From NCBI RefSeq assembly GCF_055900595.2, contig NZ_CM148325.1: DNA of 64,000 nucleotides; one strand, written 5' to 3'. Each line of letters opens with the position of its first letter. Within the stretch, counting starts at the first letter, position 1. Below, one piece after another: positions 1-23,813 of the stretch. A model generated the notes under the pieces. It was not told the DNA's origin, did no database searches, and saw only the letters and a program-made list of their open reading frames with translations. Made by a program: the position numbers and the translations under genes.

Positions 1-63
1 TCTGCGTCATTCCGGAGTTTATGAGGCACTAAGGCGAACATAAGAGATGGAATGAGCATCTAC
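1..63 (-). ncRNA. glmZ: GlmZ small RNA, 5' portion (gene runs off the window start)
   Basis: Reverse complement of 1..63 reads GTAGATGCTCATTCCATCTCTTATGTTCGCCTTAGTGCCTCATAAACTCCGGAATGACGCAGA, which I recognise as the 5' end of E. coli GlmZ; position upstream of aslA matches the known aslA-hemY intergenic location. Confidence 0.7.
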
Positions 64-487
64 TCGTTTAGTATGCCACAGAGAACCGGGAAATAACATC
101 CCTTAACACTTGTTATGAGATAATTCTGTAATCCTCTTTGCTTCCTGAGTAATAACTTCCTGAGTGAATATTTCTCCTGCGCACGATTCTACACATATAT
201 ATAATGAATAATAAAAGTCATTCAATTAATAATATATATATTAATTGCCATTAAAACTAAAAACAGCATCAATAATCAACGCGATATAACATCACCGCCT
301 TACATATCACCTGCGCCAGAGGTAGGATTGAAAACGCTCTCCTGATTTTCAAATTCATTATCTGGATAAATAAATAATTTATTTTCATCACTATTATTTA
401 TGCAATCATCCTGTCAGGGAGAGGGATCTCAATTATCAATGCTTAATTACGTCAACATTTTGACGACATGAAACCGGAGCATTTTGC

Positions 488-2143
488 ATGGAATTTTCGT
501 TTTCACCCAAACTTCTTGTTGTGGCTGTCGCCGCCGCTCTTCCACTCATGGCCAGCGCAGCAGATACCCCGTCAACCGCCACCGCACGCAAAGGCTTTGC
601 CGGATACGATCACCCAAACCAGTATCTGGTTAAACCGGCGACCACTATTGCCGACAACATGATGCCGGTGATGCAGCATCCTGCACAAGACAAAGAAACC
701 CAGCAGAAGCTGGCGGAATTAGAGAAAAAGACCGGTAAGAAACCGAACGTGGTTGTTTTCTTGCTGGATGATGTGGGCTGGATGGACGTTGGCTTTAACG
801 GCGGCGGCGTGGCGGTGGGTAACCCTACACCAGATATCGACGCCGTTGCCAGCCAGGGGCTGATTTTAACTTCGGCGTATTCTCAACCGAGTTCTTCCCC
901 AACCCGCGCCACGATTCTCACCGGACAATACTCCATCCACCACGGCATTCTGATGCCGCCAATGTACGGGCAACCGGGCGGTCTGCAAGGGTTAACCACT
1001 CTGCCGCAGTTGCTGCACGATCAGGGCTACGTCACCCAGGCCATCGGGAAATGGCATATGGGGGAAAACAAAGAGTCGCAGCCGCAGAACGTTGGCTTTG
1101 ATGATTTCCGCGGCTTTAACTCGGTATCCGATATGTATACCGAATGGCGTGATGTTCATGTCAACCCGGAAGTCGCCCTGAGCCCGGATCGTTCTGAATA
1201 CATCCAAAAACTGCCGTTCAGCAAAGATGACGTTCATGCCGTGCGCGGCGGTGAACAGGAAGCCATTGCCGACATTACGCCGAAATATATGGAAGACCTG
1301 GATCAACGCTGGATGGAATATGGCGTTAAGTTCCTCGACAAGATGGCGAAGAGCGATAAGCCTTTCTTCCTCTACTACGGCACTCGCGGCTGTCACTTCG
1401 ATAACTACCCAAATGCGAAATATGCGGGTAGCTCTCCGGCGCGCACCTCTTACGGCGACTGCATGGTGGAGATGAACGATATCTTCGCCAATCTGTATAA
1501 AGCACTGGAGAAAAACGGTCAGCTTGATAACACGCTGATTGTGTTCACCTCTGATAACGGTCCGGAAGCTGAAGTTCCGCCGCACGGTCGCACGCCGTTC
1601 CGCGGTGCGAAAGGTTCTACATGGGAAGGCGGCGTTCGTGTGCCAACCTTCGTTTACTGGAAAGGGATGATCCAACCGCGTAAATCTGACGGTATTGTCG
1701 ATCTGGCGGATCTCTTCCCTACGGCGCTGGATCTGGCAGGACATCCTGGAGCGAAAGTGGCGAATTTAGTGCCGAAAACCACCTTTATTGATGGTGTGGA
1801 CCAGACATCTTTCTTCCTGGGAACAAATGGTCAGTCTAACCGTAAGGCCGAGCACTACTTCCTCAACGGCAAACTTTCTGCTGTGCGTATGGATGAGTTT
1901 AAATATCACGTACTCATCCAACAGCCATACGCTTATACCCAGAGCGGGTATCAGGGTGGATTCACCGGCACAGTAATGCAAACGGCGGGATCGTCGGTGT
2001 TTAACCTGTACACCGATCCGCAGGAAAGCGACTCTATCGGCGTGCGCCATATCCCAATGGGTGTACCGCTACAGACCGAAATGCACGCGTATATGGAGAT
2101 CCTGAAAAAATATCCGCCGCGCGCGCAGATTAAATCTGATTAA
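488..2143 (+). CDS. aslA: arylsulfatase-like periplasmic sulfatase
   Basis: 551-aa ORF with N-terminal signal peptide ([24 protein letters not shown]) and sulfatase signature S-x-P-x-R ([12 protein letters not shown]); synteny with aslB. Confidence 0.9.
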
Positions 2144-2149
2144 GCCGGC

Positions 2150-2300
2150 GCTATCGCTACATCGGGCCACACTGACCTTGCCGGATGCGGCGTGAACGCC
2201 TTATCCGGCCTACAAGCCTTGCAAATTCAATAAATTGCAGCGTCCTGTAGGCCGGATAAGATGCGTCAGCATCGCATCCGGCAATCAACCGCAGGCGGCC
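2150..2300. repeat. REP/BIME-type palindromic repeat cluster between convergent aslA and aslB
   Basis: Repeated GCCGGATGCGGCGTGAACGCCTTATCCGGCCTAC-like units in both orientations (gccggatgcggcgtgaacgccttatccggcctac ... gtaggccggataagatgcgtcagcatcgcatccggc). Confidence 0.6.
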
Positions 2301-2317
2301 ACAAAATGGCTGCTTTT

Positions 2318-3553
2318 TTACTTATTCACCACCATCAAATGCGCCTGCATAATGTCGCTGGCCGGGCGACCGTGCGCCAGCAAATCAGCCATTGCTTTAA
2401 GATATGGCGGTAGATAGCGGAAATAACGCTGATACCCGGCACACAAATAATTCAGCCCCGGCTTACCGCTGGCATCGAGCATAAAGCGGTGTTTCGGGCA
2501 GCCTCCCCAACATGCTTTTAACACGTTACAACTGCGACACTGCGCCGGTAACTGCTTAAATTTATCTTCTCCAAACACCTGCTGCTGCGGGGAATCTAAC
2601 ATTTCTGCAATTGTTTGCTGAAGCATATTCCCTAGTCGATACTGGGGATAAACATAGTGATCGCAGGCATAAACGTCACCGTTGTGCTCAACAATCACCG
2701 AGCGTCCACAGGTCGGCTGATGATGGCAAACCGCGCCCGGTGCGCCAACAAAATTGGCGAACGCCCATTCGATATTCATTACGAAAATCTTACCGACGTC
2801 GCGCTTAATCCAGTGGTCGAAAATCGCCACCAGAAACTCACCGAACTCATCGGGGCGCACCGACCATTCTGTCAGTTCCCCCTGAATATCACCAGGCGCA
2901 TGTAATTTCAGTCCATTGCGGGCAGCTGTTTCATCAGCCAGGCGCTCCACCACCGGAATAAACTGGATGAACTCCACGCCTGCATTGCACAAAAAATCAT
3001 AAACCTGTAACGGTTGCTGCGCGCTGGTGCGGTTGACACAGACCAGCACGTTATAGTCGACATGATGTTTTTGCAGGAGCGTCAGGGCACGCATCACCAG
3101 CTTATGCGTGGGTCTGCCACCTTTGGTCACGCGATATTGATTGTGGATCTCAGCCGGACCGTCCAGCGATAACCCAACAAGAAAATGATTTTCTGCCAGA
3201 AATGCACACCACTCATCATCAAGCAGCACACCGTTAGTCTGGAAGCTGTTACTTACCTTCCTACCAGCACCATATTTCGCCTGTAGCGCCACGGCACGGC
3301 GGTAAAAATCCAGCCCGAGTAACGTTGGTTCGCCGCCCTGCCAGGTAAAAGCCACTTCGTTTTGGGGTTCGCTGGCAGCGATATAGTGACGGACATACGC
3401 TTCCAGCGTGTCATCGTCCATATGCGCAACTGGCTTTTCGCGGTAAAGGGATTGTTTTTCGAGATAAAAACAGTAGTCACAGTTCAGATTACAATCGGAA
3501 CCGCTTGGTTTCGCCATCACATGAAAAGCACGCGTTGGAACCTGTTGCAGCAT
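2318..3553 (-). CDS. aslB: anaerobic sulfatase-maturating enzyme (radical SAM)
   Basis: ORF with CxxxCxxC radical-SAM motif (CNLNCDYC) and C-terminal Cys clusters; the track ORF (to 3583) is N-terminally extended, start placed at MLQQVPTRAFHVMAKPSG from memory of K-12 AslB. Confidence 0.85.
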   Translation of the reverse strand: MLQQVPTRAFHVMAKPSGSDCNLNCDYCFYLEKQSLYREKPVAHMDDDTLEAYVRHYIAASEPQNEVAFTWQGGEPTLLGLDFYRRAVALQAKYGAGRKVSNSFQTNGVLLDDEWCAFLAENHFLVGLSLDGPAEIHNQYRVTKGGRPTHKLVMRALTLLQKHHVDYNVLVCVNRTSAQQPLQVYDFLCNAGVEFIQFIPVVERLADETAARNGLKLHAPGDIQGELTEWSVRPDEFGEFLVAIFDHWIKRDVGKIFVMNIEWAFANFVGAPGAVCHHQPTCGRSVIVEHNGDVYACDHYVYPQYRLGNMLQQTIAEMLDSPQQQVFGEDKFKQLPAQCRSCNVLKACWGGCPKHRFMLDASGKPGLNYLCAGYQRYFRYLPPYLKAMADLLAHGRPASDIMQAHLMVVNK

Positions 3554-3664
3554 GGTCGCTCCTTGCCTGAAGTCATCCTTCAATACGTTAAGGGCGAAAT
3601 CATACCGTGTAGCAATGAGTGACTACGGGCGTTTATTGCGAAGGGAGAGTGATGAAATGCACAG

Positions 3665-3691
3665 AAAACAAAAAACCCCGCCGAAGCGGGG
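3665..3691 (-). terminator. rho-independent terminator ending the tRNA operon
   Basis: GC-rich hairpin ccccgc-cgaa-gcgggg followed on the minus strand by a U-run, immediately downstream of proM. Confidence 0.6.
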
Positions 3692-3699
3692 TTCAAAAT

Positions 3700-3776
3700 T
3701 GGTCGGCGAGAGAGGATTCGAACCTCCGACCCACTGGTCCCAAACCAGTTGCGCTACCAAGCTGCGCTACTCGCCG
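3700..3776 (-). tRNA. proM: tRNA-Pro (anticodon UGG)
   Basis: Reverse complement gives CGGCGAGTAGCGCAGCTTGGTAGCGCAACTGGTTTGGGACCAGTGGGTCGGAGGTTCGAATCCTCTCTCGCCGACCA with cloverleaf and CCA end. Confidence 0.9.
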
Positions 3777-3818
3777 AAATACTGCTTTTTGAATTTTTAG
3801 TTCAATTTTTTAAAGTCG

Positions 3819-3905
3819 TGGTGCGAGGGGGGGGACTTGAACCCCCACGTCCGTAAGGACACTAACACCTGAAGCTAGCGCGTCTACCAATTCCGCCACC
3901 TTCGC
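3819..3905 (-). tRNA. leuT: tRNA-Leu (anticodon CAG), long variable arm
   Basis: Reverse complement gives GCGAAGGTGGCGGAATTGGTAGACGCGCTAGCTTCAGGTGTTAG...CCCCCCCCTCGCACCA, 87 nt. Confidence 0.9.
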
Positions 3906-3925
3906 ATTGTCACAACTTCTAATAA

Positions 3926-4001
3926 TGGGGTGGCTAATGGGATTCGAACCCACGACAACTGGAATCACAATCCAGGGCTCTACCAACTGAGCTATAGCCA
4001 C
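3926..4001 (-). tRNA. hisR: tRNA-His (anticodon GUG)
   Basis: Reverse complement gives GGTGGCTATAGCTCAGTTGGTAGAGCCCTGGATTGTGATTCCAGTTGTCGTGGGTTCGAATCCCATTAGCCACCCCA, including the extra 5' G typical of tRNA-His. Confidence 0.9.
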
Positions 4002-4059
4002 CACTACAAATCTTGTTACGCGGTATTACTACCACCGCAGCTCAAGCGCCGGGACTAAA

Positions 4060-4136
<77 letters not shown>

Positions 4137-22146: not shown

Positions 22147-22281
22147 ATAAAAAATGTCATACTCAAAATCATTCAAACTGTATCAAGATGGCAAGAGAGT
22201 TAATCCCAATGAACTTACTGTAGTAAGTGATTCGGATGAAAGAACGCAGCCAACGCAGAGACAGAATGAAGGATGAAGAGT

Positions 22282-23766
22282 ATGGGTTCCACTTCGTCAT
22301 TATATGCAGCCATTGATCTCGGTTCGAATAGTTTTCATATGCTGGTTGTGCGCGAGGTGGCTGGAAGCATCCAGACGCTGACGCGAATTAAACGCAAAGT
22401 GCGTCTGGCTGCTGGCCTGAACAGCGAAAATGCCCTGTCTAATGAAGCAATGGAGCGCGGTTGGCAATGTTTGCGCCTGTTTGCTGAACGTCTGCAAGAT
22501 ATCCCTCCCTCGCAAATTCGCGTTGTCGCCACGGCGACATTACGCCTTGCCGTCAATGCCGGTGATTTTATTGCCAAAGCGCAGGAAATCCTCGGTTGTC
22601 CGGTACAAGTGATCAGCGGTGAAGAAGAAGCTCGCCTGATTTATCAGGGGGTTGCTCACACCACTGGCGGTGCCGATCAGCGCCTGGTGGTGGATATCGG
22701 CGGCGCCAGTACTGAACTGGTAACCGGCACGGGCGCACAAACCACCTCGTTGTTCAGCCTGTCGATGGGCTGCGTCACCTGGCTGGAACGCTATTTTGCC
22801 GATCGTAATCTGGGGCAGGAAAATTTTGATGCCGCAGAAAAAGCGGCACGCGAAGTGTTACGTCCGGTTGCCGATGAATTGCGGTATCACGGCTGGAAAG
22901 TATGCGTTGGTGCTTCCGGCACTGTGCAGGCCTTACAAGAAATCATGATGGCACAGGGGATGGATGAACGGATTACCCTGGAAAAGTTGCAGCAACTGAA
23001 ACAGCGCGCCATTCATTGTGGTCGACTGGAGGAACTGGAGATCGACGGGCTGACGCTGGAACGTGCGTTAGTGTTCCCGAGTGGTCTGGCGATCCTGATA
23101 GCCATTTTTACCGAACTGAATATTCAGTGTATGACCCTGGCTGGCGGTGCACTGCGTGAAGGCCTGGTCTACGGCATGTTGCATCTGGCCGTCGAGCAGG
23201 ATATTCGCAGCCGTACGCTGCGTAATATTCAACGCCGCTTTATGATCGATATTGATCAGGCTCAGCGAGTAGCCAAAGTTGCGGCTAATTTCTTCGATCA
23301 GGTGGAAAACGAATGGCATCTTGAAGCAATAAGCCGTGATTTGCTCATCAGCGCCTGTCAGCTTCATGAAATCGGTCTGAGCGTTGATTTCAAACAAGCG
23401 CCGCAACATGCTGCTTATCTGGTGCGTAATCTGGATCTTCCCGGTTTTACGCCTGCACAGAAAAAATTACTGGCGACGCTACTACTCAACCAGACGAACC
23501 CAATAGATCTCTCCTCGTTGCATCAACAAAATGCCGTACCGCCACGCGTCGCAGAACAACTCTGCCGTTTACTACGCCTGGCCATCATTTTTGCCAGCCG
23601 TCGCCGTGACGATCTCGTGCCAGAGATGACATTAAAGGCCAACCATGAACTGTTGACCTTGACGCTTCCGCAAGGTTGGCTAACCCAACATCCGCTGGGT
23701 AAAGAGATTATTGATCAGGAAAGCCAGTGGCAAAGCTATGTTCACTGGCCGTTGGAAGTGCATTAA
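22282..23766 (+). CDS. gppA: guanosine pentaphosphate phosphohydrolase / exopolyphosphatase family
   Basis: Ppx/GppA-family ORF; start placed at [20 protein letters not shown] (494 aa). Confidence 0.95.
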
Positions 23767-23813
23767 AGAGTAATATGCTGGGTGCGATGCTCGCGCATCT
23801 TACCCGGCCTTGA

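What the first reader, a model, noticed from the sequence alone, without database searches (positions are those of the whole stretch)
2144..2317. REP/BIME cluster filling the convergent aslA-aslB gap
The 174-bp gap consists almost entirely of REP-like palindromic units in alternating orientation. Such elements can stabilise upstream mRNA and bind gyrase/IHF; here they separate two convergent sulfatase-system genes.
Basis: partly seen in the sequence, partly recalled or inferred. Interest (0 to 1): 0.15.

Follow-up and report, generated by a model that had tools for sequence, protein, structure and literature searches.

The report
REP doublet between aslA and aslB
The gap between the convergent sulfatase genes aslA and aslB holds one ordinary E. 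coli repeat element, two inverted REP palindromes around an IHF-site linker, followed by a small terminator hairpin. The only unusual point is that the same element sits flipped end-for-end in K-12 and most other strains.

Summary
The finding is real and ordinary. The gap 2144-2317 lies between aslA (+) and aslB (-). It contains one REP doublet, not a larger cluster: a y-type REP (2179-2213, 35/35 to the published y consensus), a 33-nt L-type linker (2214-2246) with an IHF-like site, and an inverted 37-nt z2-length REP (2247-2283, 32/37 to z2). The doublet covers 107 of 174 bp. The rest is unique flank plus a strand-specific terminator hairpin with T6 (2293-2317) serving aslA. Transcripts from either strand fold the doublet into one hairpin of about -66 kcal/mol.

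By the strict nomenclature this is an L-linker, RIP/RIB-like "atypical" BIME (y + L + z2-like), not canonical BIME-1 (y + z1).

Across 5,426 complete E. coli genomes:
- 51 carry the doublet in the window orientation.
- 2,210 carry the same doublet inverted (K-12, O157).
- About 590 and about 850 have it collapsed to a single palindrome.
- About 1,725 have lost aslA by a deletion ending inside the REP.

Both orientations also occur in other Escherichia species. Salmonella, Citrobacter and three other genera have only a terminator hairpin here.

Most likely it is a semi-selfish repeat acting incidentally as an RNA 3' barrier and IHF site. Interest is low.

The parts
488..2143 (+). aslA coding sequence (context; arylsulfatase), stop codon 2141-2143
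   Evidence: ORF list; RefSeq annotation of the 99.8%-identical strain Z0117EC0005
2144..2177 (.). Non-repeated aslA-side flank. 2144-2158 (GCCGGCGCTATCGCT) is shared by all alleles. 2159-2177 (ACATCGGGCCACACTGACC) is found only with the window orientation; K-12-orientation alleles have GAGATCTGCCT instead.
   Evidence: Allele comparison. The 19-nt flank type is linked to orientation in the 10 full doublets and 2 collapsed remnants compared. Weak similarity to the reverse complement of the aslB-side flank.
2179..2213 (-). REP#1, y-type (35 nt). Read on the minus strand it is GTAGGCCGGATAAGGCGTTCACGCCGCATCCGGCA, with the GTAG head and AA/GC bulge.
   Evidence: 35/35 identity to the published y consensus (PMC2817692 Table 1; y = 35 nt in PMC8266576). 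Hairpin arms I3. RNA hairpin -21.3 kcal/mol, z = -5.1.
2214..2246 (+). L-type linker (33 nt) with conserved core 2221-2240, GCAAATTCAATAAATTGCAG
   Evidence: Unique in the window, 0.01 expected by chance. The identical core occurs at about 7 distinct loci in metagenome contigs, always next to a y REP. L linker definition from PMC3333891.
2225..2237 (+). IHF-consensus-like site ATTCAATAAATTG (8 of 9 specified positions of WATCAANNNNTTR)
   Evidence: Read directly from the sequence. The consensus is from my own knowledge. IHF binding by BIME-1 linkers is cited in PMC3333891 and PMC2817692. Binding here was not tested.
2247..2283 (+). REP#2, a 37-nt z2-length variant: GTAGGCCGGATAAGATGCGTCAGCATCGCATCCGGCA, with GTAG head and AA/GC bulge
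   Evidence: 32/37 to the z2 consensus at the same length. Hairpin arms I4. RNA hairpin -22.0 kcal/mol, z = -5.7. Among the L-linker loci sampled this variant occurs only at this locus. Queries that include this REP have a median of only 1-2 places per E. coli genome.
2178..2284 (.). The whole REP doublet (107 bp), bounded by 12-nt terminal inverted repeats TTGCCGGATGCG / CGCATCCGGCAA. It folds as one long hairpin on either strand.
   Evidence: Inverted repeats I1 and I2. RNA MFE -65.8 (+) and -67.6 (-) kcal/mol, z about -10. In context, z = -6.9 and -6.3. The same element is inverted in K-12, O157, Z30 and others.
2293..2317 (+). Intrinsic-terminator-like hairpin (stem-loop 2293-2315) followed by a T-run that abuts the aslB stop codon. 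It is directional, serving aslA.
   Evidence: Consensus scan. -12.9 kcal/mol on the + strand (z = -3.3) against -8.2 (z = 0) on the - strand. A hairpin plus T-run occupies the same position next to the aslB stop in Salmonella, Citrobacter, Pseudocitrobacter, Pluralibacter and Superficieibacter. Present in 3,610 of 5,426 E. coli genomes and lost in the K-12 type.
2318..3553 (-). aslB coding sequence (context; anaerobic sulfatase maturase), stop codon complement at 2318-2320
   Evidence: ORF 2318-3583. RefSeq aslB is 1,236 nt in the near-identical strain.

Best explanation
The gap holds one copy of a well-known E. coli repeat: a REP doublet (a BIME of the L-linker, RIP/RIB type). It consists of a y REP, a 33-nt linker with an IHF-type site, and an inverted 37-nt z2-like REP. 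It was inserted in the Escherichia lineage between the aslA stop codon and an older terminator hairpin that abuts the aslB stop codon. Shown here: the identity of the parts, the repeat-family relationship, the folding potential, the absence of REPs in other genera, and the allelic series in E. coli. Inferred from what is known of the family: on DNA the linker binds and bends with IHF between two cruciform-prone palindromes. In RNA read from either gene the doublet folds into a hairpin of about -66 kcal/mol that should block 3'-to-5' exonucleases and dampen read-through into the convergent partner. Actual termination of aslA is by the separate hairpin plus U6 at 2293-2317. The population data show the doublet is dispensable and structurally labile. 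It is found flipped, collapsed to single palindromes and used as a deletion end point. It therefore behaves mainly as a semi-selfish, REPIN-like repeat whose host effects are incidental.
For: Identity of the parts:
- y REP 35/35 and z2-length REP 32/37 to the published consensus, each with the GTAG head and AA/GC bulge (PMC2817692, PMC8266576).
- The linker core is identical to linkers flanked by y REPs at about 7 other loci.
- The match is far from chance, with 0.00-0.5 expected.
- y-containing queries hit a median of 30-40 places per E. coli genome, limited by the output cap.

Folding:
- -65.8 and -67.6 kcal/mol, z about -10.
- The terminator hairpin is strand-specific.

Insertion in Escherichia:
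- Five other enterobacterial genera have only a terminator hairpin between aslA and aslB.

Dispensability and lability in 5,426 genomes:
- 51 in the window orientation.
- 2,210 in the inverted orientation.
- About 592 plus about 853 single-palindrome remnants, each explainable as a deletion between short direct repeats.
- About 1,725 with an aslA deletion ending in REP#2.

Functions of the family are taken from PMC3333891 and PMC2817692.
Against: No expression, 3'-end or protein-binding data were available for this locus, so all functional steps are inferred. The partner REP is not the 29-nt z1 that defines BIME-1, so the transfer of IHF binding from BIME-1 rests on the linker alone. The IHF match has one mismatch. 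The REPs start 35 nt from the aslA stop codon and 33 nt from the aslB stop codon. That is outside the roughly 15-nt range in which REPs are reported (from my own knowledge) to affect translation termination. K-12-type alleles lack the terminator hairpin yet keep the doublet, which could mean the doublet does carry a termination role there.
Confidence: 0.8

Rival explanations
1. The doublet is a purely selfish REPIN-like element with no host function at all. Any RNA or IHF effect is negligible, and only the separate hairpin matters for aslA/aslB expression.
For: Extreme polymorphism: two orientations, two kinds of collapsed remnant, and use as a deletion end point. The element is absent from other genera, which manage with a terminator hairpin alone. 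Both REPs keep the GTAG head, the bulge and the GGCC|TACA motif that TnpA-REP needs (PMC3333891).
Against: About 42% of genomes keep a full doublet. A hairpin of -66 kcal/mol in a 3' UTR can hardly be without effect on RNA decay. K-12-type alleles have lost the terminator hairpin but kept the doublet.
Confidence: 0.3
2. The doublet is an invertible switch. It flips recurrently, through its 12-nt terminal inverted repeats or through TnpA-REP, and orientation changes which gene is insulated or where IHF bends the DNA.
For: Both orientations occur within E. coli and in other Escherichia species. Linker variant and y-loop base occur in all four combinations with orientation. Flanking coding SNPs are not linked to orientation.
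Against: Orientation is linked to an adjacent 8-bp indel in all ten full doublets and both collapsed remnants, which recurrent flipping between the REP ends would not recreate. Clonal groups sampled are uniform: all listed O145:H28 in one orientation, all listed O157:H7 in the other. No other L-linker locus in the metagenome sample shows two orientations. Recombination can explain the mosaic flanks.
Confidence: 0.05
3. The region encodes a REP-derived small RNA, naRNA4-like or ES036/CssrF-like.
For: Sub-threshold Rfam matches: naRNA4 at 40.4, 35.1 and 30.7 bits on the REPs, and ES036 at 29.7 bits on the linker.
Against: All matches are below the gathering scores (59.5 and 37.6). naRNA4 derives from the tandem REP325 cluster, so the hits simply reflect shared REP sequence. 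The only promoter-like site in 1900-2600 lies inside aslB at 2325-2353, none falls in the gap, and the count equals the chance expectation.
Confidence: 0.05

Closest known systems
BIME-1 / RIP / RIB elements of E. coli (y REP, L linker with IHF site, z1 REP; single copy at 3' ends of transcription units)
   Same: Two REPs in inverted orientation. A y REP identical to the consensus. A long conserved L linker with the same 20-nt core as other such elements and an IHF-like site. A single copy lying between the 3' ends of two genes. Presence/absence polymorphism among strains, as reported for BIME-1 (PMC1187871).
   Different: The partner REP is 37 nt, which is z2 length (32/37 to z2). It is not the 29-30-nt palindrome that partners the same linker at most other loci in my sample, which I take to be the 29-nt z1 (PMC8266576). 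By the strict scheme it therefore falls under 'atypical BIME'.
BIME-2 (tandem y/z2 REPs with short S linkers; strong gyrase sites)
   Same: Contains a y REP and a z2-length REP.
   Different: It has a long L linker instead of S, and a single doublet instead of tandem copies. The gyrase enrichment documented for BIME-2 (PMC6379681) cannot be assumed here.
REPINs (REP doublets forming hairpins, mobilised by RAYT/TnpA-REP; Bertels and Rainey)
   Same: An inverted REP doublet that folds as one long hairpin. The single-palindrome alleles (for example TTGCCGGATGCG-ATGCTGA-CGCATCCGACAA in ST131) look like the 'long palindromic REP singlets' said to arise when the centre of a doublet is excised (PMC3337134).
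   Different: The two REPs are of different types (y and z2-like), and the spacer is a conserved protein-binding linker. Mobilisation by TnpA-REP was not tested.
naRNA4 (Rfam RF02564; REP325-derived nucleoid-associated RNA)
   Same: It shares the REP hairpin sequence, giving sub-threshold matches.
   Different: The score is below the family cut-off. REP325 is a six-unit tandem cluster at another locus (PMC4550694).

Membership tests
E. coli REP (palindromic unit) | Imperfect GC-rich palindrome of 29-37 nt preceded by GTAG | tested here: met
   Both units have GTAG plus 14-nt arms that are 86% complementary. Their lengths are 35 and 37 nt.
E. coli REP (palindromic unit) | Conserved AA/GC mismatch bulge in the stem | tested here: met
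   GCCGGAT-AA-GGCG...CGCC-GC-ATCCGGC and GCCGGAT-AA-GATGC...GCATC-GC-ATCCGGC, read. The feature is described in PMC8266576.
E. coli REP (palindromic unit) | Match to the y, z1 or z2 consensus | tested here: met
   y 35/35; z2 32/37 (consensus from PMC2817692).
E. coli REP (palindromic unit) | Extragenic location and high copy number in the genome | tested here: met
   It lies between two stop codons. y-containing queries hit a median of 30-40 places per genome, limited by the output cap.
BIME-1 (RIP/RIB) | Two REPs in inverted orientation, as a single copy | tested here: met
   No further units lie in the gap, and no other full-length REP lies in the 64-kb window. One degenerate REP-like palindrome sits at 23783-23810.
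BIME-1 (RIP/RIB) | Composition of one y and one z1 (29 nt) | tested here: not met
   The partner REP is 37 nt and z2-like. Most other loci with the same linker carry a 30-nt partner, GTAGGCCTGATAAGCGNAGCGCATCAGGCA.
BIME-1 (RIP/RIB) | Long conserved L linker carrying an IHF consensus | tested here: met
   The 20-nt core is identical at about 7 loci. ATTCAATAAATTG matches 8 of 9 consensus positions.
BIME-1 (RIP/RIB) | IHF actually binds | not testable with these tools
   Needs EMSA, footprinting or ChIP.
BIME-2 | Tandem y/z2 units with short S linkers | tested here: not met
   One doublet with a 33-nt L linker.
Atypical BIME (any other combination of y, z1, z2, L, S...) | Mixed composition, here y + L + z2-like | tested here: met
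   It fits by the definitions in PMC3333891 and PMC1187871. However, atypical BIMEs are described as usually multi-copy, and this one is single.
REPIN | REP doublet that folds as one hairpin | tested here: met
   -65.8 and -67.6 kcal/mol for the doublet, against -43.3 for two separate hairpins.
REPIN | Mobilised by a cognate RAYT/TnpA-REP | not testable with these tools
   The sequence requirements (GTAG, bulge, GGCC|TACA) are present (PMC3333891). Activity and the presence of yafM in this genome were not examined.
Rfam naRNA4 (RF02564) | Score at or above the gathering threshold of 59.5 bits | tested here: not met
   Best score 40.4 bits.
Intrinsic terminator (for 2293-2317) | GC-rich stem-loop followed directly by a U-run on the transcribed strand | tested here: met
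   9-pair stem, 5-nt loop and a T-run. It is stable only on the + strand. Whether it terminates transcription was not tested.

The most novel reading that the evidence does not exclude
The doublet was turned around in place, and the two orientations have persisted or recurred across Escherichia species. One possibility is a fold-back (template-switch) replication event that also copied the aslB-side flank, inverted, onto the aslA side. Another is repeated flipping through the REP ends or TnpA-REP. Either way this would be a documented in-situ inversion polymorphism of a BIME/REPIN, which I did not find described in the library I could search. If flipping were recurrent, the doublet would be a natural orientation switch between two convergent genes.
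Probability: 0.1. Interest if true: 0.5.

Novelty: already known. Interest (0 to 1): 0.18.

Why it matters
As found, it matters little. It is a textbook repeat element at the 3' ends of two poorly studied genes, and its likely roles (RNA 3' barrier, IHF site) are generic.

The locus is a compact natural experiment. The same 107-bp doublet exists in two orientations, in two collapsed forms and as a deletion end point, with and without an adjacent terminator hairpin, all at appreciable frequency in sequenced E. coli. That makes it a convenient place to measure what a REP doublet actually does to convergent transcription, and to study how REP doublets rearrange.

Tried and rejected
- **Rfam.** All families, with permissive filters on 1-4000, gave only sub-threshold REP-derived hits (naRNA4, ES036). 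I rejected these as evidence for an sRNA gene.
- **K-12 annotation.** I looked for a REP/RIP annotation in the K-12 RefSeq record. The local copy lists no repeat features even at the known REP325 locus between yjdN and yjdM, so its silence at aslA-aslB means nothing.
- **Older papers.** The primary BIME/RIB papers (PMC413762, PMC1207841) are not held. The z1 consensus sequence was therefore not available as text. Only its length of 29 nt was (PMC8266576). I inferred the z1 identity of the 30-nt partners at other loci.
- **Independent insertions as the origin of the two orientations.** Rejected. In one register, alleles at this locus are 86-95% identical to the window element, against 75-83% for other L-type BIMEs. 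They also share the locus-specific partner REP.
- **Simple inversion of flank plus doublet.** Rejected. The reverse complement of the left flank does not appear on the right.
- **Inversion of the linker alone through the inner 15-nt arms.** Not seen in any allele.
- **Template-switch idea.** Support is weak: p = 0.003 in one of 20 comparisons.
- **Linkage of flanking coding SNPs to orientation.** None was found. The flanks are mosaic.
- **Literature.** Searches for aslA/aslB with REP, and for BIME orientation or inversion, found nothing relevant.

Full report
**Observation**

The window has an ORF at 488-2143 (+) and one ending at 2318 (-), leaving a 174-bp gap at 2144-2317. A RefSeq E. coli genome (Z0117EC0005) that is 99.8% identical over 574 bp annotates the two genes as aslA (arylsulfatase) and aslB (anaerobic sulfatase maturase), convergent.

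**Anatomy of the gap**

Reading from aslA towards aslB:
- 2144-2177: non-repeated flank.
- 2179-2213: a REP in the inverted sense. On the minus strand it reads GTAGGCCGGATAAGGCGTTCACGCCGCATCCGGCA. This is 35/35 identical to the y consensus printed in Table 1 of PMC2817692, and 35 nt long as stated for y in PMC8266576.
- 2214-2246: a 33-nt linker.
- 2247-2283: a second REP in the forward sense, GTAGGCCGGATAAGATGCGTCAGCATCGCATCCGGCA. It is 37 nt long and matches the z2 consensus 32/37.
- 2285-2292: a short spacer.
- 2293-2317: a stem-loop followed by a T-run that abuts the aslB stop codon.

Both REPs have the GTAG head and the AA/GC bulge described for E. coli REPs (PMC8266576). The whole doublet is bounded by 12-nt perfect inverted repeats at 2178-2189 and 2273-2284. 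Inner 15-nt perfect inverted repeats flank the linker.

Chance is excluded. The REP pattern, the REP tail and the linker core have 0.00, 0.49 and 0.01 expected matches in shuffles of the window.

REPs proper make up 72 of the 174 bp, and the doublet 107 bp. 'Almost entirely REP' and 'cluster' are therefore overstatements.

**What kind of BIME it is**

The literature I could read defines three classes (PMC3333891, PMC1187871, PMC8266576):
- BIME-1: one y plus one z1 (29 nt), separated by a long conserved L linker that often carries an IHF site, as a single copy.
- BIME-2: tandem y/z2 units with short S linkers.
- Atypical BIME: everything else.

I scanned metagenome contigs for the 20-nt linker core GCAAATTCAATAAATTGCAG. 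This gave 58 loci from about seven distinct genomic sites.
- At every site a y REP lies on the same side of the core as here, so the linker is a genuine L linker.
- At most sites the partner is a 30-nt palindrome, GTAGGCCTGATAAGCGNAGCGCATCAGGCA. From its length I infer this is z1.
- One site has a 38-nt z2-like partner.
- The CCGG/ATGC 37-nt partner occurs only at the aslA-aslB site.

The linker contains ATTCAATAAATTG (2225-2237). This matches 8 of 9 specified positions of the IHF consensus WATCAANNNNTTR, which I quote from my own knowledge.

The element therefore works like a BIME-1 / RIP / RIB. By strict composition (y + L + z2-like) it is an atypical BIME.

Rfam gives only sub-threshold hits: naRNA4, which derives from REP325, on the REPs, and ES036 on the linker.

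**Folding**

- The doublet folds as one long hairpin on either strand: -65.8 kcal/mol (+) and -67.6 kcal/mol (-), z about -10.
- The two REPs folded separately give -21.3 and -22.0 kcal/mol.
- In full 3'-UTR context the same structure is predicted, with z = -6.9 and -6.3.
- The small hairpin at 2293-2315 is -12.9 kcal/mol on the + strand (z = -3.3) and is followed by U6.
- On the - strand it is only -8.2 kcal/mol (z about 0) and has no U-run.

It therefore looks like a one-way terminator for aslA.

**Other genera and species**

A degenerate pattern for the AslA C-terminus retrieved the site from nine enterobacterial species-representative genomes; a tenth match, in an archaeal metagenome-assembled genome, was not used.
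- Salmonella enterica subsp. arizonae, a Citrobacter, two Pseudocitrobacter, Pluralibacter and Superficieibacter have no REP. Each has a short gap with one hairpin plus T-run abutting the aslB stop codon.
- The terminator position is therefore old, and the doublet is an Escherichia-lineage insertion between the aslA stop codon and that terminator.
- E. whittamii and E. coli E69 carry the doublet in the window orientation.
- Escherichia sp. E1V33 carries it in the opposite orientation.

**Polymorphism within E. coli**

K-12 MG1655 has a 158-bp gap. It holds the same doublet turned end-for-end, with the z2-like REP next to aslA and the y REP next to aslB.

Put into one register, alleles from this locus are 86-95% identical to the window element, whatever their chromosomal orientation. 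L-type BIMEs from other loci are only 75-83% identical. The locus alleles also share the locus-specific partner REP. This is the same element inverted in place, not two insertions.

Junction-specific queries against 5,426 complete genomes gave the following counts.

| Allele | Genomes |
|---|---|
| Window-type aslA-side flank plus y REP | 643 |
| of these, full doublet in the window orientation (including O145:H28) | 51 |
| K-12-type aslA-side flank | 3,063 |
| of these, full doublet in the K-12 orientation | 2,210 |
| No aslA 3' end | about 1,725 |

The remaining genomes with a flank, about 592 and about 853, carry single palindromes.
- Example: TTGCCGGATGCGGCGTGAACGCCTTATCCGGCAA in strain WCHEC040047, where the gap is 101 bp. 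This equals the window allele minus the 73 bp between the direct repeats reported.
- Example: TTGCCGGATGCGATGCTGACGCATCCGACAA in ST131 strain EC958, where the gap is 90 bp.
- Both lack the GTAG/CTAC head. They are best read as collapse products, like the 'long palindromic REP singlets' described in PMC3337134.

In the genomes without an aslA 3' end, the aslA-deleted genomes and contigs inspected carry a deletion of about 1.6 kb. It runs from near codon 46 of aslA to inside the z2-like REP, with TATC microhomology.

The terminator hairpin is present in 3,610 genomes. It is lost in K-12-type alleles.

**What remains unexplained**

- Orientation is linked to the aslA-side flank in all ten full doublets and in both collapsed remnants compared. 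The window orientation goes with the 19-nt ACATCGGGCCACACTGACC type, the K-12 orientation with the 11-nt GAGATCTGCCT type. The aslB-side flank is the same in both. A plain inversion between the terminal repeats does not explain this.
- Inside the element, a linker variant (CCTT against ATCGT) and the y-loop base occur in all four combinations with orientation.
- Coding SNPs within 200 bp are mosaic.
- One hypothesis is a fold-back template switch that copied the aslB-side flank, inverted, onto the aslA side together with the doublet. The E. whittamii flank aligns to the reverse complement of the K-12-type right flank with p = 0.003 by shuffling. That was one of 20 comparisons, and the E. coli versions are not significant. 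I treat this as an idea, not a result.
- The number of inversion events is unresolved. The linked indel, the uniformity of the listed O145:H28 and O157:H7 genomes, and the absence of dimorphism at other L-linker loci in the sample argue against frequent flipping.

**Mechanism and verdict**

Shown here: the identity of the parts, the family relationship, the folding potential, the lineage-specific insertion and the allelic series.

Inferred from the family (PMC3333891, PMC2817692): IHF binding to the linker, and an RNA hairpin acting as a 3'-exonuclease barrier and read-through damper for both convergent transcripts. The separate hairpin plus U6 would end aslA transcripts.

Strong gyrase binding is documented for tandem BIME-2 elements (PMC6379681), not for this type.

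The element is dispensable and labile, so it is best seen as a semi-selfish repeat with incidental host effects. This is a known kind of element at an unremarkable place, and interest is low. The in-place inversion polymorphism is the only feature a specialist might want to follow up.

Noticed in passing
window 1-63 (-): The 5' part of the GlmZ (SraJ) small RNA gene, cut by the window edge (Rfam 63 bits, above the gathering score). This matches the K-12 order hemY-glmZ-aslA.
   Followed up: partly
window 3700-4136 (-): Four tRNA genes in a row downstream of aslB's start: Pro(tgg), Leu(cag), His(gtg) and Arg(ccg).
   Followed up: partly
window 23783-23810, within the gap 23767-23813: A degenerate REP-like palindrome, GGGTGCGATGCTCGCGCATCTTACCCGGCC. 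It is 25/28 identical to REP#2 but has no GTAG head. It fills a 47-bp gap between convergent ORFs 22273-23766 (+) and 23814-25886 (-).
   Followed up: partly
related loci L007 and L008, plus six metagenome contigs (L025, L031, L046, L055, L059 and others): About a third of complete E. coli genomes (about 1,725 of 5,426, including O26 and O111:H8) lack the aslA 3' end; in the aslA-deleted genomes and contigs inspected, most of aslA is gone. The deletion of about 1.6 kb runs from near codon 46 to inside the z2-like REP of the K-12-orientation doublet, at TATC microhomology. It leaves the linker and the y REP.
   Followed up: partly
window 643-2143 and 2318-3553: aslA and aslB of this strain are unusually diverged from other E. 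coli. Differences from K-12, O157 and O145 are 97-104 over the last 1,500 nt of aslA. They are 64-82 over the roughly 1,200 nt of aslB compared. K-12, O157 and O145 themselves differ by 3-4% in aslB.
   Followed up: no
window 2293-2317 compared with L001 (K-12), L004, L074, L078: The terminator hairpin next to the aslB stop codon is replaced by GGCGGCCGCCGATTTCTA, with no loop and no T-run, in K-12-type alleles. These make up about a third of E. coli genomes. In those strains the REP doublet is the only structure left in the gap.
   Followed up: partly
window 2112-2130 (-): A terminator-like site on the minus strand inside the last codons of aslA (ATCTGCGCGCGCGGCGGAT followed by ATTTTTT). It could end aslB transcripts that pass the doublet, but the hit count equals the chance expectation for the region.
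   Followed up: no
metagenome loci such as L026, L030, L038, L012: At several other L-linker BIME loci the y REP is preceded by a shared motif of about 30 nt (ATTGCTGACAAAGTGCGCTTTGT...). The far flank is partly its inverted complement. This suggests conserved outer motifs of the mosaic that the aslA-aslB copy does not share.
   Followed up: no
L001 and L009 (NC_000913.3 in the local collection): The local RefSeq copy of K-12 lists no REP or repeat features at all, not even at the known REP325 locus between yjdN and yjdM. Absence of a repeat annotation in this collection is therefore uninformative.
   Followed up: yes
one search hit table (K-12 yahH): The y REP query hits an annotated 'protein YahH' gene in many genomes. 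This appears to be a protein annotation laid over REP sequence.
   Followed up: no
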